Shown piece by piece: positions 16,467-36,880 of a stretch of 64,000 bases of DNA (position 1 is its first letter; each line of letters begins with the position of its first letter). The translations under genes were made by a program, and so were the position numbers. The stretch comes from an uncultured delta proteobacterium (GTDB taxonomy: Bacteria; Myxococcota_A; Polyangia; Polyangiales; B10-G4). The notes beneath the pieces are model-generated. The model saw nothing but the letters and a program-made list of their open reading frames with translations. It was not told the origin of the DNA and ran no database searches. The stretch spans positions 42,041 to 106,040 of the forward strand of contig CAVSGI010000025.1 in NCBI GenBank assembly GCA_963727445.1, written 5' to 3'.

Positions 16467-16483
16467 GGCCTTTTCGTCCGGCA

Positions 16484-17176
16484 GGCCGAAGGCCCCACAC
16501 AAGGCTCACGCCACCGTAGCGGAGCGCGGCCGGAGTGTGGGCGAAGCCCACGCGCCGGGCGTGCGCAGCGCAGGTGGGGTGAGCCAGGACTGCGTCCGGC
16601 CGGCCGAAGGCCCCACACAAGGCTCACGCCACCGTAGCGGAGCGGCAGCGCAGGGCGCGTAGCGCCTGGAGGTGCAGCGCAGCGCAGGTGGGGTGAGCCA
16701 GGACTGCGTCCGGCCGGCCGAAGGCCCCACACAAGGCTCACGCCACCGTAGCGGAGCGGCAGCGCAGGGCGCGTAGCGCCTGGAGGTGCAGCGCAGCGCA
16801 GGTGGGGTGAGCCAGGACTGCGTCCGGCCGGCCGAAGGCCCCAGACAAGGCTCACGCCACCGTAGCGAAGCGGCAGCGCAGGGCGCGTAGCGCCTGGAGG
16901 TGCAGCGCAGCGCAGGTGGGGTGAGCCAGGACTGCGTCCGGCCGGCCGAAGGCCCCAGACAAGGCTCACGCCACCGTAGCGAAGCGCGGCCGGAGTGTGG
17001 GCGAAGCCCACGCGCCGGGCGTGCGCAGCGCAGGTGTCGTGAGCCAGGACTGCGTCCAGTAGGCCGAAGGCCCCACACAAGGCTCACGCCACCGTAGCGA
17101 AGCGCGGCCGGAGTGTGGGCGAAGCCCACGCGCCGGTGCGTGCGCAGCGCAGGTGTCGTGAGCCAGGACTGCGTCC
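16484..17176. repeat. Tandem array of six 114/118-bp palindrome-rich (REP/BIME-like) units with two alternative central modules
   Basis: GGCCGAAGGCCCCA(C/G)ACAAGGCTCACGCCACC starts at 16484, 16602, 16716, 16830, 16944 and 17062; module order A,B,B,B,A,A. Confidence 0.95.
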
Positions 17177-20074: not shown

Positions 20075-22189
20075 ATGGGGTCTCACGTGTCTTCCCTGGT
20101 CCACGCCGCACTCACCTTCCGCCGCACGGCGCGGGCGAGCTTCGGCTACCTGGCGGCCTTCGCCTTCGCGGTGCTCGACTTCCTCGGCGTCTTCCGGGTG
20201 AGCTACGAGTCGCTCGGCCTCGAGCACGGCGTGGTGACGGCGGCGTGGATCGCCGTCTTCGCCACGCGGGCCACGTCGCGCTTCAAGCAGGAAGAGGCGG
20301 GGCGGGTGCGCGCCTCTCTCGATCTCGAGCTGGGGCTGCTCCTGCTTGTCGCGGCGCACGCCGTGGTGCAGGTCGGTGGTGGGCTCACCAGCAACCTCTA
20401 TCCGCTGGTCTACATTCTGGTCGCCTTCGTCGCGTCCTTCGGCGAGCGGCCGGTCGGGACGATCCTGGTGCTGGTCGCCGTCTTCTTCGAGGCGGGGCTG
20501 TGGTTCATCACCGAAGAGCGGCGTGACGTGGAGCCGTTCGCGGTGCATGCGGCGTTCATCGTCTTCTTCGGGCTCCTCAATCTGGTCTTCACGCGCGTCG
20601 AGATCGCGCGGGTGCGCGAGCGTTCGAAGCGGGAGCTGGATCAAGAGCGCGAGAAGGTGCGCGACGATGCGCGGATCTTCCGGCTGGTGAGCGCGCCGAC
20701 GTCGTCGGGCGCCGCCGACGAGGAGCGTCTGCTCCGTTCGAGCATGGAGCAGGTCCACGCGCAGCTCTTTCACCAGCTCGACATGCTGAAGAAGACGATG
20801 GAGCTGCACACCTGCATCCTCTTCTTCGTCGACGAGAGCGGGGAGCGGCTCAGCATCGTCGAGCTGGCGACGGACTCGGACGACATCGCCGAGGGGCCCT
20901 TCAAGGTGGGCGGCGGTGCGGTGGGCGCGGTGGCGAGCCGCGGCGTGACGATGAACCTCGAGAACCTGCGGCTCGGCTACAAGGGGCTCTGTTACTACCG
21001 CGGGCCGGCGGAGGTGCGCGGTTTCGTGGGCGTGCCGGTGGTGGACGAGGGGAAGCTGCGCGGCGTCCTAGCGTGTGATCGGCGGGACGAGCGGCCCTTC
21101 ACGGGGCGGGACGAGCAGGTGCTCGAGGCGACTGTGAAGCAGATCCTCCGCACGGTGGAGAACGAGCGGGTCTTCGTGCAGCTCGAGCGCAGCAAGCGCG
21201 AGCAGACGGTGCTCTACGGCGCGTCGCAGAAGCTGGGCGCGGCGCTGACCGAGGACGAGGTGATCGACGCGGGGCTCGCGGCGGCCGCGGAGATCGCGAT
21301 GTACGACTTCGCTGCGGTGACGCTCTTCGATGCGGAGTCGAAGCGGCATTCGGTGCGGCGCGCGGTCGGCGAGGGAGCGGAGACCTTCACGAAGCTGACC
21401 TTCCGGGACAACACGTCGTTGACCGCGATGGCGGTGAAGAACAAGCATTACCTGCCGTACAAGGGCGAGTTCGACCCGCGCCAGCAGGTGGTCTTCACGA
21501 AGCGGAAGAACCTGAAGGGTATGGCGTCGCTCTTGATCATGCCGCTGGTGGTGCGGGAGAACGCGATCGGGACGATCTCCTTCGCGGCGCATCGTCGCGA
21601 TGCGTTCGGGAGCGCGGTGCGGCCGACGCTCTCGGTGCTGGCAAATCACGTGGCGGTGGCGCTGAGCAACGCGGCGGCCGTGCGGCGGCTCGAGGAGATG
21701 GCGACGACCGATGGGCTCACCGGCTGTCTGAACAAGCGGGCGTTCCTGGACGAGCTCGAGTCGAAGATCCGGAGCGCGGAGCGCTTCGACCGCAAGCTCT
21801 CACTGTTGGTGACGGACATCGACCATTTCAAGAGCGTCAACGATACCTACGGGCACGCGACGGGCGACGTGGTGATCAAGGAGCTCGGCGAGATCCTGCG
21901 GCGGATGAAGCGCGAGACCGACGTGGTGGCGCGCTTCGGCGGTGAGGAGTTCTGCATTCTCTGCGAGGAGACCGACACCGAGGGCGCCACGCTCCTCGCC
22001 GAGCGCGTCCGCGAAGAGCTCGAAGCCACCGTCTTCCAGACCGAGCTCGGCCGCCTCAAGGTCACCGCCTCCATCGGCGTCGCCACCTTCCCCCACGACG
22101 CCATGGACGAGCGCGGCCTCTTCGAGGCCAGCGACCGCGCCCTCTACGCCGCCAAACACGGCGGCCGCAACCAAGTCCGCACCGCCTGA
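20075..22189 (+). CDS. Membrane-bound diguanylate cyclase (TM-GAF-GAF-GGDEF)
   Basis: N-terminal TMs, two GAF-like regions, DIDHFKSVNDTYGH, RETD I-site, GGEEF active site. Confidence 0.93.
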   Translation: MGSHVSSLVHAALTFRRTARASFGYLAAFAFAVLDFLGVFRVSYESLGLEHGVVTAAWIAVFATRATSRFKQEEAGRVRASLDLELGLLLLVAAHAVVQVGGGLTSNLYPLVYILVAFVASFGERPVGTILVLVAVFFEAGLWFITEERRDVEPFAVHAAFIVFFGLLNLVFTRVEIARVRERSKRELDQEREKVRDDARIFRLVSAPTSSGAADEERLLRSSMEQVHAQLFHQLDMLKKTMELHTCILFFVDESGERLSIVELATDSDDIAEGPFKVGGGAVGAVASRGVTMNLENLRLGYKGLCYYRGPAEVRGFVGVPVVDEGKLRGVLACDRRDERPFTGRDEQVLEATVKQILRTVENERVFVQLERSKREQTVLYGASQKLGAALTEDEVIDAGLAAAAEIAMYDFAAVTLFDAESKRHSVRRAVGEGAETFTKLTFRDNTSLTAMAVKNKHYLPYKGEFDPRQQVVFTKRKNLKGMASLLIMPLVVRENAIGTISFAAHRRDAFGSAVRPTLSVLANHVAVALSNAAAVRRLEEMATTDGLTGCLNKRAFLDELESKIRSAERFDRKLSLLVTDIDHFKSVNDTYGHATGDVVIKELGEILRRMKRETDVVARFGGEEFCILCEETDTEGATLLAERVREELEATVFQTELGRLKVTASIGVATFPHDAMDERGLFEASDRALYAAKHGGRNQVRTA

Positions 22190-22362
22190 ACGGGGACGGT
22201 CTACACTTTTCAACTTTTCCAGCCTGAACGGGGACGGTCTACACTTTTCAACTTTTTTCAGCCGTTGTGGCGAGTGCTGGGAGCGAAAGTTGAAAAGTGT
22301 AGACCGTCCCCGTTGTGGCGGGTGCTGGGAGCGAAAGTTGAAAAGTGTAGACCGTCCCCGTT
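22189..22362. repeat. Four copies of a 29-bp element (two direct, two inverted)
   Basis: AACGGGGACGGTCTACACTTTTCAACTTT at 22189 and 22227; its reverse complement at 22286 and 22334. Confidence 0.95.
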
Positions 22363-22399
22363 GTGGTGGGGGGCGGTCGGCGCTATCGATTGGGCTGCG

Positions 22400-32499: not shown

Positions 32500-33585
32500 A
32501 TGGCTCGTTCTGGCTTTTGGGGGCTCTTGGTGGTGGCGGTCGCTTGTGTGGGGTGCGCCACGAAGGGCACGCCTCGAGGCGGCGACGGCGACTCGAGCAT
32601 CGCCATCGATGGCAGCACCCGCACCGACAGCACCGTCCGCCCGATCCCGGACGCGAGCCTCGAGGGCTGCACCGCGAGCAGCGCCATGGTCGAGGAGGGC
32701 TACGCGCCCATCGACATCATCTACGTCGTCGACAGCTCGGGGAGCATGTCGAACGAAGCGGAGCGCGTGCAGGAGAACATGAACGCGTTCTCCACCGCCC
32801 TCGGCGCCCTCGACCTCGACTACCACGTGGTGATGATCACCACGAGCTCCTACGTGTCGGTGCCGCCGCCCCTCGGCGGCAGCCCCCGCTACATGCTCAT
32901 CGATCGTCCGGTCTCCTCGAACGAGCCGCTCCGCGCGCTCCTCGACGAGTACCCGACCTACTCGAGCTTTCTGCGCCGCTCGGCGATAACCCATTTCGTG
33001 GCGGTGACCGACGACGAGAGCGACGTGACCGCGGCAGACTTCAAGATGCAGATGGAGCGCAACCTGATGCGCAACTTCATCTTCCACGCCATCGCATCGG
33101 AGATGGGCACCACCTCCTTCACCAATCCCGAAGGCGCGTGTCAGGTCTCGGGCGGCGGCTTCGGAGACGGCGCGGCGGCGCCAGGGCTCCAGTATTACGA
33201 GCTGGCGCATCTGACCGGCGGGCTGACCTTCTCCATCTGCACGCCCGCAGACGAGTGGGCGGGGCTCTTCGACACGCTGACGGCAGCGATCGCGGTGCCG
33301 ATGGCGCTCCCCTGCCGCTACGAGGTGCCTTCGGCGCCGGACGGCATGGAGCTCGATCCCTTCCAGGTGAACGTCCGCTTCACCAGCGGCACCGGCATGG
33401 AGCAGGTGCTGCCTTACGCCGGCGGCATGGCCGGCGCGGACACCGACTGCACCGCGGGCGGTTGGTACTACGAGAGCGACGCGCACGACGTGATCCTGAT
33501 CTGCCCCAACACCTGCTCGCAGATCGAGAGCGACGCGGCCGCACGGCTCGACTTGATCTTCGGCTGCATGACGCAGTTCATTTAG
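32500..33585 (+). CDS. vWA-domain lipoprotein
   Basis: Lipobox CVGC, DSSGSM MIDAS, VAVTDD; GGAGG RBS. Confidence 0.85.
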   Translation: MARSGFWGLLVVAVACVGCATKGTPRGGDGDSSIAIDGSTRTDSTVRPIPDASLEGCTASSAMVEEGYAPIDIIYVVDSSGSMSNEAERVQENMNAFSTALGALDLDYHVVMITTSSYVSVPPPLGGSPRYMLIDRPVSSNEPLRALLDEYPTYSSFLRRSAITHFVAVTDDESDVTAADFKMQMERNLMRNFIFHAIASEMGTTSFTNPEGACQVSGGGFGDGAAAPGLQYYELAHLTGGLTFSICTPADEWAGLFDTLTAAIAVPMALPCRYEVPSAPDGMELDPFQVNVRFTSGTGMEQVLPYAGGMAGADTDCTAGGWYYESDAHDVILICPNTCSQIESDAAARLDLIFGCMTQFI

Positions 33586-33601
33586 GGCGCTTCGCGTTGG
33601 T

Positions 33602-33735
33602 GGGAACGGGAACGTGAGCGGGAACGTGAACGTGAACGTGGGCGGGAACGTGAACGGGAACGTGAACGTGAACGGGAGCGTGAACGGGAACGTGAGCGGG
33701 AGCCGGAACGTGAACGTGAACGTGAGCGGGTGAGC
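33602..33735 (+). repeat. Hexamer tandem tract 1, about 22 x G(G/T)GA(A/G)C
   Basis: GGGAAC/GTGAAC/GTGAGC/GGGAGC units in register from 33602. Confidence 0.95.
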
Positions 33736-33739
33736 GTGT

Positions 33740-33801
33740 TTCTTGGTCATCGCTGAGACCCCTCTCTTTTGGGGGAAAGGGGTCTCAGCGATGACCAAGA
33801 A
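33740..33801 (+). promoter_or_regulatory. Perfect 24-bp inverted repeat just upstream of four-helix-bundle gene 1
   Basis: TTCTTGGTCATCGCTGAGACCCCT (33740-33763) and AGGGGTCTCAGCGATGACCAAGAA (33778-33801). Confidence 0.85.
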
Positions 33802-33813
33802 CACTCTGATCAG

Positions 33814-34131
33814 ATGATTCATCACAATCTTCGGGTTTGGCAGCGGGCCGTGGCCCTGGTGCGTGCCGTGTACGCCAACCTGCCGAAGGACGCCGAGCTG
33901 CGGTCGCAGGTGAAGAGGGCTTCGACCTCGGTCGGTGCCAACATCGCCGAGGGATGCACGCAGAGCTCGCGGGCGATGCAGCGTAAGCACTACGAGATCG
34001 CGCGGGGCTCGGCCGTCGAGACCGTGGCGTGTTTCGAGCTGGCGGAAGCGACGGGGGATCGGCTTCCTGTCGAGGAGGTGCGAAGCCACGGCGCAGCGAT
34101 CGCCGCGATGCTCACGAAGATGCTTCGGTGA
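33814..34131 (+). CDS. Four-helix-bundle protein (23S rRNA IVS protein / Avd-like family)
   Basis: LRVWQRA, QVKRASTSVGANIAEG, IARGSAVET motifs. Confidence 0.9.
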   Translation: MIHHNLRVWQRAVALVRAVYANLPKDAELRSQVKRASTSVGANIAEGCTQSSRAMQRKHYEIARGSAVETVACFELAEATGDRLPVEEVRSHGAAIAAMLTKMLR

Positions 34132-34137
34132 ACGACG

Positions 34138-34175
34138 GTGAGCCCGGAGGGAGGGGGTTCGCCCTCCGGGCTCAC
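34138..34175. terminator. 14-bp hairpin between the two convergent four-helix-bundle genes
   Basis: GTGAGCCCGGAGGG and CCCTCCGGGCTCAC arms. Confidence 0.65.
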
Positions 34176-34182
34176 GTTCACA

Positions 34183-34509
34183 TCAACGATGGATCATCCG
34201 CCAGAGGGTGGCGGCGGCGTGATCGAAATGGTCCTCGGCCGATGTGCTCTCTGCCGCCCCGAGGTAGCCCCACGCCACAGCGATGCGAAGCGCCTGCCTC
34301 GCCTCCCTCGCAGAGTTCATCGCGACGGAGAGGCGTTCAGGCCGATGGCCTTTTCGCCCCCACTCGCCCTCGGCGGCGTTCAGCGCCGCCGAGCTGGCGG
34401 CCCGCCGCAGCTGCGACGCGAGGTCGCGGTCTTCGTCTTGGATGGCCTCGGCGAGGGGCCGCGTGGCCTCGATGGCCTCGAGGAGGATGTCGTGTACCAG
34501 CTTGCTCAT
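34183..34509 (-). CDS. Four-helix-bundle protein (second, divergent)
   Basis: DLASQLRRAASSAALNAAEG, AMNSARE, AWGYL motifs; AAGGAG RBS. Confidence 0.88.
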   Translation of the reverse strand: MSKLVHDILLEAIEATRPLAEAIQDEDRDLASQLRRAASSAALNAAEGEWGRKGHRPERLSVAMNSAREARQALRIAVAWGYLGAAESTSAEDHFDHAAATLWRMIHR

Positions 34510-34511
34510 GA

Positions 34512-34590
34512 GGTGTCGCTCCTTCCGCCCGCGTCAGGGGGCTTTGCCCCGCCCGAAGGGCCCCCTGACGCGGGCGGGAGGAGCGACACC
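34512..34590 (-). promoter_or_regulatory. 31-bp inverted repeat (one mismatch) covering the RBS of four-helix-bundle gene 2
   Basis: Arms at 34512-34542 and 34560-34590. Confidence 0.85.
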
Positions 34591-34597
34591 GATGGGT

Positions 34598-34705
34598 CCA
34601 CTCCCACTCCCACTCCCACTCCCACTCCCACTCCCACTCCCACTCCCACTCCCACTCCCACTCCCACTCCCACTCCCACTCCCACTCCCACTCCCACTCC
34701 CACTC
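34598..34705 (-). repeat. Hexamer tandem tract 2, (CCACTC)18, read as (GGGAGT)n on the minus strand
   Basis: Perfect 108-bp tandem repeat. Confidence 0.97.
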
Positions 34706-34740
34706 TTCGGACCCGAGCGCAGCGAAGGGGGGCAGAACGT

Positions 34741-34908
34741 GGGAACGGGAACGGGAACGGGAGTGGGAACGGGAACGGGAACGGGAACGGGAACGTGAAC
34801 GTGAACGGGAGCGTGAGCGGGAACGGGAACGGGAACGGGAACGGGAACGGGAACGGGAACGGGAACGGGAACGGGAGTGGGAACGGGAGCGGGAACGGGA
34901 ACGGGAGG
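34741..34908 (+). repeat. Hexamer tandem tract 3, about 28 x GGGAAC with GGGAGT/GTGAAC/GGGAGC/GTGAGC variants
   Basis: Units in register from 34741; ends 4 nt before the stop of the upstream minus-strand gene. Confidence 0.97.
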
Positions 34909-34912
34909 GCGA

Positions 34913-36880
34913 TTACTCTGGGTCGCAGGGGCCGTCGCAGGTCTGTTCGACCATGCCGTCGGGGCGCAGGAAGCGGTCGAGCTGCTCCTGGCTCGCGGCG
35001 AGGCGCCGGACGCCTTCGTGTACTTCGTTGTCCTCCGGGATCAGCATCTCGTCGGTGGGCGCGACGCCGAAGTCGAACTCCTCGATCGTCGCCGGGCCGT
35101 CGTAGGGCGCGGTGACGTCCTCGAGGCCGGTGATGGGGCGCGGCGCGGGCGTCAGGTGGGCGGCGCCGACGGCGCGCGCGTGGAGGTGCGCGGCGAGGTT
35201 CGTCACCTGGGCGTCGTTGACGCCAATCTGCATCAACACGCGCCGGCCGGCCGGCGTGCCGGGATAGGGGTCCGTCACCAGGTGGCTCGAATAGCTCAGC
35301 GGGTCGATGCGATCGAACTCGAGCTGCGCGAGGAGCTGGACCTTCTGGCGTTCGAAGGCGTCGTTGGCGACGGCCGCGAGGATGGCGAGGAAGGGGAAGA
35401 AGGGACGCGCGCGAAACATCATCAGACTGAAGTTCGCGCCGCCGACGCCGAGCACCGCGCGGTCGATGTCGGGTGACAGAGCGACGAAGGTGCCGCCGAG
35501 GATGTGGCCCTGGCTGTTGCCCCAGTAGTAGACCTCGGCGGGCTCGTAGACGAGCTCGCCGCCGATGATCAGCTCGGGCAGCGTCGTGAGCGTCGTGCGG
35601 ATCGCGTGCGCGACCGCCATGAAGTTCGCCATGCCCTGATGCACACGGTCCGTGAACTTCATCGTCTGCGTCGGCTCGCCGGCGAGGGAGATCCCGAGCT
35701 GCTGTCCGTCGGGCTGAGTCATCCCCCACCAGTCGGTGAAGAAGAGGACGAAGCCGCGGTCGTCCGCGACCTCGTGGATGGTGTTCTGCACCGCCTCCTC
35801 ACGCGATCCGAAGAAGCCGTGCCCGTACATGAGCGCCCGCGCCGGCGGATCCGTCATGGGATCGCGCGCGGCGACGCTTCGCGGGATCAGGATGGTGAAA
35901 GGCACCTCGGCGGTCCCATTCGCCACCACCGCGCCGCTGCCGTCGCGGTTCAGCGTCGACTCCACCTCGATCGAGTCGACGTAGAGCGGCACGGTGATCG
36001 TCGCCTCGATGCGCCGGAACGCGGTGTCGCTGTAGTCGTCCGTCACCTCGGTGACGGTGACGGCGGGCGGATCCGTTTCCATCCGGCTCACGAGGTCGTT
36101 GCGCACCCCGACCATGTCGCCGATGGTGTTGTCCTCGCTGCGCACCGTGAAGTCCCAGGCGAGGATCAGCTCCGCCCGCGCGACGCCCGCTGCCACCAAC
36201 GGGGCGAACACGTCGTCTTCGTAGCGGGCCGCGAGGCCCTCGAGCGCCGCGCTCTCGGGCGTCTCTCCGTCGCGGAGCTGGCGGAAGCCCTCCGGCACGG
36301 GAAGCGGATTGCCGTCGACGTCGTCGAGGCCGCGGATCGCGGCCACGTACCGATGCCCCCACGCGAGCGGCACCATCGGCCGGATGTAGAGAAGGCGCTT
36401 CTGGACCGGCGCGGTCGGATCGATCTCGGCGAAGTGGAGCACGCGCTCGCCGGTGTCGGCATCGAGGAGCACGGTGGGGCTCGCGTCGCCGAGGGACTCC
36501 GTGACGTCGTCCGTGTGAAAGACGAGGGGCGCGTCGTCGACGTTCACCGGGAAGCGGATCATCAGCGGCGAGCCCGGCGAAAAGCCGTCGTGGACGTGGA
36601 GCGCCGCGACGTCGACCGGCCCGGCGTTCGCGTGCAGCTGCGCCGGCTCCGGCAGCGTGACCTGGCCGCCGGTCAGGAAGAAGTCGGAGGGGAAGGGCAG
36701 GAGGCAGTCCCAGTCGGCGGCGAGGGGGTTACAGCTGGGGTCCGGCGGCGGGACGGAGGTGTCCGCGTCGGCCGCGTCCATCGCCGCATCCATCGCGGCG
36801 TCGGCGCTCCCGTCGTCCCCACAAGCGGCGGCGGCCGTGAGTCCGACGAGCAGCAGCAGAAGCGCGCGGCGTTCGTTCAC
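34913..36880 (-). CDS. Lipoprotein with alpha/beta-hydrolase-like domain
   Basis: Lipobox AAAC, YGHGFFG, GNSQG nucleophile elbow. Confidence 0.8.
   Translation of the reverse strand: MNERRALLLLLVGLTAAAACGDDGSADAAMDAAMDAADADTSVPPPDPSCNPLAADWDCLLPFPSDFFLTGGQVTLPEPAQLHANAGPVDVAALHVHDGFSPGSPLMIRFPVNVDDAPLVFHTDDVTESLGDASPTVLLDADTGERVLHFAEIDPTAPVQKRLLYIRPMVPLAWGHRYVAAIRGLDDVDGNPLPVPEGFRQLRDGETPESAALEGLAARYEDDVFAPLVAAGVARAELILAWDFTVRSEDNTIGDMVGVRNDLVSRMETDPPAVTVTEVTDDYSDTAFRRIEATITVPLYVDSIEVESTLNRDGSGAVVANGTAEVPFTILIPRSVAARDPMTDPPARALMYGHGFFGSREEAVQNTIHEVADDRGFVLFFTDWWGMTQPDGQQLGISLAGEPTQTMKFTDRVHQGMANFMAVAHAIRTTLTTLPELIIGGELVYEPAEVYYWGNSQGHILGGTFVALSPDIDRAVLGVGGANFSLMMFRARPFFPFLAILAAVANDAFERQKVQLLAQLEFDRIDPLSYSSHLVTDPYPGTPAGRRVLMQIGVNDAQVTNLAAHLHARAVGAAHLTPAPRPITGLEDVTAPYDGPATIEEFDFGVAPTDEMLIPEDNEVHEGVRRLAASQEQLDRFLRPDGMVEQTCDGPCDPE

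What the first reader, a model, noticed from the sequence alone, without database searches (positions are those of the whole stretch)
33602..34908. Mirror-image four-helix-bundle cassette: hexamer tract, long hairpin, then gene, on both strands
Seen: two divergent ~105-aa four-helix-bundle genes face each other. Read on its own sense strand, each has the same layout: a G-rich hexamer tract of consensus G(G/T)GA(A/G)(C/T) (about 22 units for gene 1, 18 for gene 2), then a 24- or 31-bp inverted repeat ending 2-12 nt before the ATG, then the gene, then GTGAAC/GTGAGC hexamers again. The two hairpins are unrelated in sequence, so the architecture is shared rather than the sequence. Known: this family (23S rRNA intervening-sequence protein, TIGR02436/PF05635) is structurally related to the RNA-binding Avd protein of diversity-generating retroelements, and its function outside those contexts is unclear. 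Inference: a small nucleic-acid/protein module, either a minimal mobile cassette or an RNA-level regulatory unit, in which the protein recognises the hexamer tracts. There is no rRNA or reverse transcriptase nearby. This is the best candidate for an undescribed system in the window.
Basis: partly seen in the sequence, partly recalled or inferred. Interest (0 to 1): 0.88.

Follow-up and report, generated by a model that had tools for sequence, protein, structure and literature searches.

The report
Repeat-flanked four-helix-bundle gene cassettes
Two small tail-to-tail genes of the little-understood '23S rRNA intervening-sequence protein' family, each behind a long hairpin that buries its ribosome-binding site and each bordered by six-base repeat tracts, form one of five copies of a cassette that is present or absent between related myxobacterial genomes and whose mode of action is unknown.

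Summary
The features exist at the stated coordinates, but the "mirror image" does not hold. The two PF05635 genes are convergent. The conserved outer tracts have the same polarity on the + strand. The (CCACTC)18 tract that gives the mirror look occurs only in this copy.

The locus is one of five paralogous pair cassettes in this genome. All 16 PF05635 matches (11 loci) lie 59-1080 bp from a non-coding period-6 array, whereas 2.9% of the genome lies within 1.1 kb of one. Arrays accompany these hairpins (10 of 12) but not other long hairpins (1 of 53).

Array, hairpin and gene recur together with other hexamer units and hairpin sequences in other families of the order. The hairpins bury the Shine-Dalgarno sequence and, for type-1 genes, an in-frame start codon. 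Both proteins are under strong purifying selection. A congeneric genome has cassette- and array-free sites at orthologous positions.

My best reading is two modules of a recurrent, probably selfish cassette related to ORF-bearing rRNA intervening sequences, with a translation-lock hairpin and co-travelling arrays. Protein-tract recognition is untested.

This scan had already noted the same kind of cassette on other DNA (planctomycete, Kofleriaceae and others). I found no paper describing it.

The parts
33604..33730 (+). Left hexamer array of about 21 units of GGGAAC/GTGAAC/GTGAGC. It is non-coding and starts 18 nt after the stop of the vWA-like gene.
   Evidence: TRF, 20.3 copies. No coding signal in spanning frames. 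A homologous array is present in 5 of 5 copies.
33736..33805 (+). Hairpin 1. Arms are 33740-33766/33775-33801, extendable by 4 bp past a 1-nt bulge. The 3' arm carries a purine-rich SD-like AAGGGG and an ATG at 33791.
   Evidence: The arms are identical in 5 of 5 paralogs although dS is 0.6-1.4. 13 of 31 pairs changed on both sides between the two species.
33791..33817 (+). An 8-codon upstream ORF that starts at the hairpin-embedded ATG and ends in ATGA, overlapping the gene-1 start. In 3 other paralogs the same ATG is in frame with the gene.
33814..34131 (+). Gene 1, a type-1 four-helix-bundle protein of 105 aa.
   Evidence: PF05635 E 1.9e-21, TIGR02436 E 3.9e-20. AlphaFold pLDDT 97, TM 0.87-0.90 to 2GSC. 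dN/dS 0.03-0.09 among paralogs.
34138..34175 (.). Shared terminator-like hairpin between the convergent genes, with a 14-bp perfect stem.
   Evidence: A homologous stem is present in the other copies.
34183..34509 (-). Gene 2, a type-2 four-helix-bundle protein of 108 aa. It carries the 4-residue insertion typical of type 2.
   Evidence: PF05635 E 2.8e-10, TIGR02436 E 1.9e-11. Alignment A1. dN/dS 0.08-0.14.
34512..34590 (-). Hairpin 2 with 31-nt arms. On the gene-2 strand the 3' arm holds the SD (GGAAGGAG) and ends 2 nt before the ATG.
   Evidence: Present in 4 of 5 copies. 3 of 32 pairs changed on both sides.
34598..34705 (-). A perfect (GGGAGT)18 on the - strand, which is (CCACTC)18 on +. 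It is unique to this copy. As - strand RNA it can pair with the next array through G.U pairs.
   Evidence: TRF, 100% matches. Absent from 4 of 4 other copies. MFE of the two arrays is -195.7 (- strand) against -163.6 kcal/mol (+ strand).
34706..34740 (.). Spacer with a short motif (core GAGCGCAGCGAAGGGG) that recurs between hairpin 2 and the right array in other copies. A related form occurs in the congeneric genome.
34741..34906 (+). Right hexamer array (GGGAAC)27.7 with the same + strand polarity as the left array. It ends 6 nt before the stop of the lipase-like gene.
   Evidence: TRF. Conserved position and polarity in 5 of 5 copies.

Best explanation
The locus is two tail-to-tail modules of a recurrent small cassette. 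Each module is [non-coding hexamer array] - [long hairpin that base-pairs the gene's own translation-initiation region] - [PF05635 four-helix-bundle gene] - [terminator]. Here a type-1 and a type-2 module share one terminator.

I read the cassette as a semi-autonomous, probably selfish unit akin to the ORF-bearing intervening sequences of 23S rRNA, but sitting between ordinary genes.

Shown:
- the architecture;
- its recurrence with different sequences in other lineages;
- five old paralogous copies in unrelated contexts;
- strong purifying selection on both proteins and on the hairpin;
- arrays specific to these hairpins;
- cassette- and array-free orthologous sites in a congeneric genome;
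- no recombinase or RT inside the cassette.

Inferred:
(a) The hairpin is a translation lock. Any transcript that contains both arms, for example read-through from the co-directional vWA-like and lipase-like genes, cannot be translated. The protein would be made only from transcripts that start inside the hairpin, or after the stem is opened or processed. IS elements protect their transposase genes from outside transcription in the same way.
(b) The arrays belong to the unit. They are kept long by slippage and serve as homology or landing tracts for gain, loss and exchange by host recombination.
(c) The ring-forming protein acts on the cassette's own nucleic acid.
For: Copies and context
- G000 has 16 PF05635 matches at 11 loci, five of them convergent pairs.
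- The five pairs share a core of about 1 kb at 80-84% identity (C6/C27 95%) with unrelated flanks.

Array association
- All 16 matches lie 59-1080 bp from one of the 124 period-6 arrays. Only 2.9% of the genome lies within 1.1 kb of an array.
- Of 65 perfect hairpins of at least 18 bp, 10 of the 12 next to PF05635 genes have an array within 300 bp. Only 1 of the 53 others does.

Other families of the order (25 loci, 30 four-helix-bundle ORFs)
- A period-6 array lies within 1 kb upstream in 19 of 30, and on either side in 24 of 30.
- A stem of at least 15 bp lies before the start in 11 of 30.
- Units differ by lineage, for example GACCGC and GGAGCG.

Hairpin content
- An in-frame, open ATG sits in the 3' arm in 11 of 15 type-1 hairpins.
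- The SD sits in the 3' arm of the type-2 hairpins.
- Hairpin-1 arms are invariant in 5 of 5 paralogs, and 13 of 31 pairs are compensated between species.

Selection and turnover
- dN/dS is 0.03-0.23.
- Empty sites in G001: vWA|11 bp|udk, and flanks 23 bp apart at the C14b locus.
- The C27 cassette lies at a synteny break.
- In G001 the same type-1 gene is paired with a different type-2 lineage, and both types also occur solo.
- A 106-bp element sits in the arrays on both sides of the C27 cassette.

Other
- The scan found no sigma-70-like promoter in 33400-35100.
- The Coxiella IVS has a 28-bp stem, its SD is removed with the stem, and variable heptamer repeats lie just before the ATG (PMC4990558, passages read).
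Against: - No mobility was observed. Insertion and precise loss cannot be told apart, because outgroups have another gene order.
- The window's empty site also lacks the lipase-like gene.
- The paralogs are old (dS up to 1.4) and the proteins strongly conserved, which also fits a host function.
- The hairpins have no gene-less copies in this genome, unlike typical proliferating elements.
- Solo modules carry an array on one side only, so array-to-array recombination cannot be the general route.
- The empty C14b site holds only one near-unit (CGGAAC), not an array.
- No transcription data are available.
- The IS fold-back analogy is recalled, not tested.
Confidence: 0.5

Rival explanations
1. 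Autoregulatory RNA module that works like TRAP on the trp leader. The ring-shaped protein binds the hexamer repeats in its own 5' leader RNA and thereby opens or closes the adjacent SD-sequestering hairpin. On this view the cassette is a host-kept gene with an unknown cellular role.
For: - The family forms homopentameric rings (2GSC, five chains).
- Repeats of period 6 lie directly 5' of an SD-burying hairpin.
- Type-1 genes show a strand polarity: G>C on the sense strand in 16 of 21 upstream arrays.
- The window's two right-hand arrays pair much better as - strand RNA through G.U pairs.
- The hexamer unit is lineage-specific.
- The proteins are under purifying selection.
Against: - Nothing shows that the arrays are transcribed.
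- Type-2 genes show no polarity.
- Arrays of 20-80 units are far longer than a pentamer needs.
- In 3 of 5 copies gene 2 is divergent from its neighbour, so a promoter would have to lie in or beyond the array.
- The presence/absence pattern is not explained.
Confidence: 0.2
2. The arrays are neutral by-products: microsatellites that expand next to very stable hairpins or in gene-poor gaps. The cassette would then be simply a duplicated small-gene family.
For: - Other tandem repeats arise at the same spot: the perfect (CCACTC)18 here and 51-bp repeats in C6/C27.
- This genome has many hexamer arrays in general, 124 in all.
Against: - Only 1 of 53 other long perfect hairpins has an array nearby, against 10 of 12 at PF05635 genes.
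- The arrays persist with the same unit in paralogs at dS 0.6-1.4.
- The association recurs in other families of the order with other units.
Confidence: 0.12
3. A defence or addiction module, for example a toxin-antitoxin-like pair of the two proteins kept silent by the hairpins.
For: - Patchy distribution, and tightly locked translation.
- Family members are reported inside cas operons (PMC3936711, passage read).
Against: - No PADLOC match for either protein.
- Both types occur solo, and partners are swapped between species.
- No nuclease or other effector motif was seen.
Confidence: 0.08
4. A diversity-generating retroelement accessory gene (Avd), a true rRNA intervening sequence, or an assembly artefact.
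For: PF05635 resembles Avd (PMC10053308, passage read).
Against: - The only PF00078 match in the assembly is on another contig.
- Rfam finds no rRNA in the 7.4 kb around the cassette.
- The architecture recurs five times here and in an independent assembly, G001, whose contigs break at the arrays.
- Raw reads could not be checked.
Confidence: 0.03

Closest known systems
ORF-bearing intervening sequences (IVS) of 23S rRNA, e.g. the Coxiella burnetii IVS (PMC4990558; abstract and passages read)
   Same: - A PF05635/S23p gene.
- A stem of about 28 bp that includes the SD region.
- Short tandem repeats of variable number immediately before the ATG.
- Regarded as a selfish element of unknown mobility.
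   Different: - Not inside rRNA.
- The hairpin is local and lies upstream of the ORF, rather than being formed by the element's two ends.
- The repeats are 20-80-unit hexamer arrays.
- Two genes lie in a convergent pair.
- The proteins are under strong purifying selection here, whereas the Coxiella ORF is decaying.
Avd, the accessory protein of diversity-generating retroelements (PMC10053308, passage read; its role with the RT is recalled)
   Same: A homologous four-helix-bundle, ring-forming, nucleic-acid-associated protein.
   Different: No adjacent reverse transcriptase. Template and variable repeats were not specifically searched for.
PF05635 genes interspersed in cas operons (PMC3936711, passage read)
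   Same: Small family members sit between unrelated genes. The RxxxSxxxNxxE motif is present in both proteins.
   Different: That paper does not mention flanking arrays or hairpins. No cas genes are present here.
Fold-back inhibition of transposase translation in IS10/IS50-type insertion sequences (recalled, no call)
   Same: An inverted repeat that pairs with the SD and start codon, so that read-through transcripts from outside are not translated.
   Different: No transposase and no terminal inverted repeats. The internal promoter that the analogy requires has not been shown.
TRAP and the trp leader of Bacillus (recalled, no call)
   Same: A ring oligomer, tandem short repeats at 5-6-nt spacing in a leader, and an SD-sequestering hairpin.
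   Different: The protein fold is unrelated. Binding is untested and the arrays are much longer.

Membership tests
PF05635 / TIGR02436 four-helix-bundle (23S rRNA IVS protein) family | Profile score above the curated cut-off | tested here: met
   Gene 1 scores 76.7 bits (cut-off 33.8) and 72.1 bits (cut-off 24). Gene 2 scores 40.8 and 44.2 bits.
PF05635 / TIGR02436 four-helix-bundle (23S rRNA IVS protein) family | Four-helix-bundle fold like XCC0516 (2GSC) or BT_0352 (2RLD) | tested here: met
   The gene-1 model has pLDDT 97.2, with TM 0.84-0.90 to 2GSC chains and 0.70-0.82 to 2RLD. Gene 2 was tested by sequence only (2GSC, E 7.9e-5).
PF05635 / TIGR02436 four-helix-bundle (23S rRNA IVS protein) family | Conserved motif GxxRxxxSxxxNxxE (PMC3936711) | tested here: met
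   RxxxSxxxNxxE is present in both proteins. S39 and E46 are invariant and N43 nearly so across 21 sequences. The leading G is absent.
PF05635 / TIGR02436 four-helix-bundle (23S rRNA IVS protein) family | Homopentameric ring | not tested
   No multimer prediction was run.
23S rRNA intervening sequence (IVS) element | Inserted in a 23S rRNA helix | tested here: not met
   The cassette is flanked by a vWA-like and a lipase-like gene. No rRNA match in L001.
23S rRNA intervening sequence (IVS) element | Terminal inverted repeats that enclose the ORF in one long stem | tested here: not met
   Both hairpins are local and lie upstream of their ORFs. The outer arrays are direct.
23S rRNA intervening sequence (IVS) element | Excision of the stem by RNase III | not testable with these tools
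   No RNA data.
Diversity-generating retroelement (Avd role) | Adjacent reverse transcriptase | tested here: not met
   The single PF00078 match in the assembly is at C1:31930-32544. All PF05635 genes lie on other contigs.
Insertion sequence / MITE | Transposase gene or terminal inverted repeats | tested here: not met
   The only family-assigned ORFs between the arrays are the two four-helix-bundle genes. The outer repeats are direct arrays.
Insertion sequence / MITE | Target-site duplication | tested here: inconclusive
   At the C14b locus both junctions resemble the G001 empty-site sequence around the stop codon, but only loosely.

The most novel reading that the evidence does not exclude
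The array-hairpin-gene unit is a self-contained genetic element of a new kind. It has no recombinase. Its ring-shaped four-helix-bundle protein takes the hexamer array (as RNA or single-stranded DNA) as its specific ligand and uses it both to control its own locked translation and to promote array-based gain, loss and spread. The ORF-bearing intervening sequences of 23S rRNA would then be the special case in which such a unit landed in an rRNA helix.
Probability: 0.2. Interest if true: 0.9.

Novelty: new variant of a known kind. Interest (0 to 1): 0.68.

Why it matters
PF05635 proteins are widespread: in rRNA intervening sequences, inside cas operons, and as Avd in diversity-generating retroelements. 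The stand-alone members have no known function.

Here the gene is tied to two other features: a hairpin that buries its own start signals, and a long hexamer array. The tie holds across lineages whose sequences no longer match. That turns an old open question into concrete tests:
- Does the ring protein bind the repeat?
- Does the stem gate translation?
- Do the arrays drive gain and loss of the cassette?

The arrays also break short-read assemblies and sit at synteny breaks, so they bear on genome plasticity in myxobacteria.

Tried and rejected
- **Coding versus non-coding calls for the 124 arrays.** I tried three home-made classifiers: GC3 phase, ORF plus GC3, and codon-usage log-odds. All were too strict near low-complexity flanks. 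The last one called 32 of 108 distant arrays and 0 of 16 cassette-side arrays coding. The other 76 remain unresolved, so I rely on reading 24 GGGAAC-type solo tracts by eye.
- **Sequencing runs.** No listed run holds more than 7% of the sampled words and no RNA holder is listed. Read laying was not used, so the raw-read check of the tracts was not done.
- **The search for related loci.** The single-protein scan found only the two G001 records and one distant hit.
- **Rooting the C14b empty site.** Outgroups failed because the two flanking genes are arranged differently there.
- **C14a flanks.** Not found in G001.
- **C6 locus.** The empty-site search failed on an invalid reference and was not repeated.
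- **Rfam.** Only sub-threshold miRNA-precursor-like hits on the hairpins.
- **PADLOC.** No match.
- **Promoter scan.** 0 sigma-70-like sites. Other sigma types are not covered.
- **Gene-less copies of the hairpins.** None in this genome.
- **Remnant four-helix-bundle genes next to 7 solo arrays.** None at a convincing E-value.
- **Hairpin-induced slippage as the cause of the arrays.** Rejected on 1 of 53 against 10 of 12.
- **Leader ORF through the array that would melt the hairpin.** Considered by eye. The frames are not consistent between copies, so I dropped it.
- **ECF-type GGAAC promoters inside the array.** Considered. Other lineages use other units, so I dropped it.
- **Literature.** Searches found no paper describing arrays and hairpins beside PF05635 genes outside the Coxiella IVS.
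Full report
**What is there**

Between a vWA/MIDAS-like gene (32500-33585, +) and a lipase-like gene (34913-36880, -) lie the following, in order:
- a (GGGAAC/GTGAAC/GTGAGC) array, 33604-33730;
- hairpin 1, arms 33740-33766/33775-33801;
- gene 1, 33814-34131, +;
- a 14-bp terminator-like stem, 34138-34175;
- gene 2, 34183-34509, -;
- hairpin 2, arms 34512-34542/34560-34590;
- a perfect (CCACTC)18, 34598-34705;
- a 35-nt spacer;
- a (GGGAAC)27.7 array, 34741-34906.

Both genes pass the PF05635 and TIGR02436 cut-offs, and both hit the XCC0516 pentamer 2GSC. The gene-1 model (pLDDT 97) superposes on 2GSC at TM 0.84-0.90. The leader regions fold far better than shuffles, with z -8.2 and -12.2.

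**Correction of the observation**

The genes are convergent. This genome (G000, 9.47 Mb, 27 contigs) holds 16 PF05635 matches at 11 loci, five of them convergent pairs. The five pairs share a core of about 1 kb at 80-84% identity (C6 against C27 95%), and their flanks are unrelated.

In all five, both outer arrays are G-rich on the gene-1 strand. The layout is therefore direct and not mirrored. The (CCACTC)18 tract is found in this copy only. At the same place C6 and C27 carry 51-bp tandem repeats, and the two C14 copies carry nothing.

One copy (C14a) is decaying. Its gene 1 is frameshifted, its gene 2 is shortened and hairpin 2 is gone.

**Is the association more than chance?**

TRF finds 124 merged period-6 arrays of at least 8 copies in G000. 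Sixteen of them lie 59-1080 bp from a PF05635 match, and every one of the 16 matches has one nearby. Only 2.9% of the genome lies within 1.1 kb of any array.

Each protein lineage has its own unit:
- GGGAAC for the pairs;
- GTTGGC/GTTCGC for the two C9:186-188 kb genes;
- ATTCGG for C9:916/924 kb and C12;
- GCGTTT for C11.

Of 65 perfect hairpins in the genome (stem at least 18 bp, loop at most 40 nt), 12 lie at PF05635 genes and 10 of these have an array within 300 bp. Of the other 53, one has (Fisher 4e-9; the copies are not independent). Most of those 53 belong to two GGGGACG-type palindromic repeat families.

So strong hairpins as such do not breed arrays.

(GGGAAC)n tracts are common elsewhere. 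By eye the 24 solo tracts I printed mostly continue (GAGACG)n runs and read as Gly-Thr/Glu-Thr linkers after signal-peptide-like or membrane-helix-like segments. My automatic coding calls were crude: 32 of 108 distant arrays and 0 of 16 cassette arrays were called coding. Two long solo arrays (C14:205507 and C12:221047) look non-coding and have no four-helix-bundle gene or hairpin within 1.5-2 kb. They could be relics.

**Relatives**

The only congeneric genome held (G001, 590 contigs) has 9 PF05635 matches, several at contig ends next to arrays. Three forms occur there:
- one convergent pair;
- a solo type-1 gene with (GGGAAC)n plus hairpin 1;
- solo type-2 genes. Their SD region is closed by a 13-bp stem around a structured insert of about 140 nt, followed by a motif and an array.

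Alignment A1 separates two protein types. The G001 pair joins the same type-1 gene (75% identity) to a type-2 lineage that in G000 sits elsewhere, on C9. The modules are therefore separable and partners are exchanged.

Across 201 genomes of the order, 20 had a gene-1-like match at E <= 1e-10. I kept 25 loci from outside the genus, with 30 four-helix-bundle ORFs. Four duplicate loci (L009, L018, L019, L039) were dropped. Among the 30 ORFs:
- a period-6 array of at least 5 copies lies within 1 kb upstream in 19;
- an array lies on either side in 24;
- no array is found in 6;
- a stem of at least 15 bp precedes the start in 11;
- five loci are convergent pairs.

Locus L028, from another family, repeats the whole window layout with (GACCGC)50 and (GACCGC)80 and unrelated hairpin sequences.

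For type-1 genes the upstream array is G>C on the sense strand in 16 of 21. That breaks down as 5 of 5 in the genus and, among the 16 others, 11 G>C, 2 equal and 3 G<C. Type 2 shows no rule.

**The hairpins**

In 11 of 15 distinct type-1 hairpins the 3' arm holds an ATG that is in frame and open to the gene. In many lineages a GAAGGAGG lies nearer the loop. In the window and in C14a a 1-nt deletion puts that ATG out of frame. It then opens an 8-codon ORF that ends in ATGA on the annotated start.

Type-2 hairpins hold the SD in the 3' arm and end 2-5 nt before the ATG. The stems therefore bury the translation-initiation region.

Hairpin-1 arms are identical in all five paralogs apart from the 1-nt indel, while the loop varies. 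Synonymous divergence of the adjoining genes is 0.6-1.4. Between G000 and G001, 13 of 31 pairs changed on both sides. In hairpin 2, 3 of 32 pairs did.

A loop of the form TGGGGT recurs in several distant lineages.

**Selection and turnover**

dN/dS is 0.03-0.09 for gene 1 and 0.08-0.14 for gene 2 among the G000 paralogs, and 0.13-0.23 for gene 1 between G000 and G001.

Orthologous sites in G001:
- **Window locus.** The vWA ortholog is followed after 11 bp by the convergent udk gene. No array, cassette or lipase-like gene is present.
- **C14b locus.** The two flanks lie 23 bp apart on one contig. The site holds CGGAAC-TGA, one near-unit, and both G000 junctions loosely resemble it.
- **C27 locus.** The flanks lie on different contigs, next to other genes and without arrays. 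This is a synteny break.
- **C14a locus.** The flanks were not found.

Outgroups could not polarise gain against loss. A 106-bp element lies within the arrays on both sides of the C27 cassette and in the left array of C6. That points to exchange between arrays.

**What it is not**

So this is not a DGR.
- It is not in rRNA.
- It matches no PADLOC model.

**How it most likely works**

I read each module as a cassette of the kind known from ORF-bearing 23S rRNA intervening sequences. The Coxiella IVS has a 28-bp stem, an SD that is lost with the stem on RNase III cutting, and 2-4 variable heptamer repeats just before the ATG (PMC4990558).

The hairpin is best explained as a translation lock. In the window both genes lie downstream of co-directional host genes, with no room for a promoter between array and stem and no sigma-70-like site. 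Read-through transcripts would therefore be untranslatable. This is the logic of fold-back inhibition in IS10/IS50, which I recall rather than tested.

The arrays travel with the cassette. I infer that they are its homology tracts for gain, loss and exchange.

A serious rival is a TRAP-like loop, in which the ring protein binds the hexamer repeats in its own leader and sets the state of the lock. Two points fit it: the type-1 polarity, and the pairing of this copy's (GUUCCC)n and (GGGAGU)n as - strand RNA through G.U pairs (-195.7 against -163.6 kcal/mol for the + strand).

Nothing here tests binding, transcription or mobility directly.

**Novelty**

Five literature searches found no description of arrays plus hairpins beside PF05635 genes apart from the IVS paper. 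PMC3936711 reports family members inside cas operons. PMC10053308 notes the likeness to Avd.

Earlier notes of this scan describe the same kind of cassette in a planctomycete, in Kofleriaceae, in CPR bacteria and in Verrucomicrobia. My results agree with them for this genome. They also add the type-1/type-2 modules with partner exchange, the hairpin control (10 of 12 against 1 of 53), the selection figures and a clean empty site.

Noticed in passing
window 22184-22370; also G000 C14:205340-205510, C12:81736-81831, and L015 1321-1381 (G001): Two families of palindromic repeats of about 95 bp begin with GGGGACG: one with a GTCTACAC core, the other with a TAGATTGACAATTGAC core. They make up most of the 53 other long perfect hairpins of the genome (23 carry the first core) and look MITE-like.
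   Followed up: partly
window 16475-17176: A 114-bp tandem repeat of about 6 copies at 91% matches (TRF). Not examined.
   Followed up: no
G000 C6:406054-406408, C27:290404-291013, C4:23121-23551: A 51-bp tandem repeat (7-12 copies) lies between hairpin 2 and the right array in two cassette copies. It recurs at a third locus that has no four-helix-bundle gene.
   Followed up: no
G000 C27:289155-289406 and 291176-291278; C6:404866-404971: A 106-bp element with an internal small hairpin is embedded in the hexamer arrays on both sides of one cassette and on the left of another, at 97-100% identity.
   Followed up: partly
window 34913-36880: The lipase-like gene (weak VolA/Pla-1 match) overlaps the udk stop codon. 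It is missing, together with the cassette, at the orthologous site of the congeneric genome.
   Followed up: partly
G000 C9:915500-926000 (L051): Two near-identical array-hairpin-gene units (ATTCGG arrays) lie 7.6 kb apart as part of a segmental duplication of more than 1 kb that includes part of the upstream gene.
   Followed up: partly
G000 C12:221047-221444 and C14:205507-205798: Two long solo non-coding hexamer arrays, (GTTCGC) of about 66 units and (GGGAAC)48. Neither has a four-helix-bundle gene or hairpin within 1.5-2 kb. They may be cassette relics.
   Followed up: partly
G000 genome-wide, e.g. C10:1170754, C14:387505, C11:106000: Many proteins carry (GGGAAC)n/(GAGACG)n-encoded Gly-Thr/Glu-Thr linkers just after signal-peptide-like or membrane-helix-like segments.
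   Followed up: no
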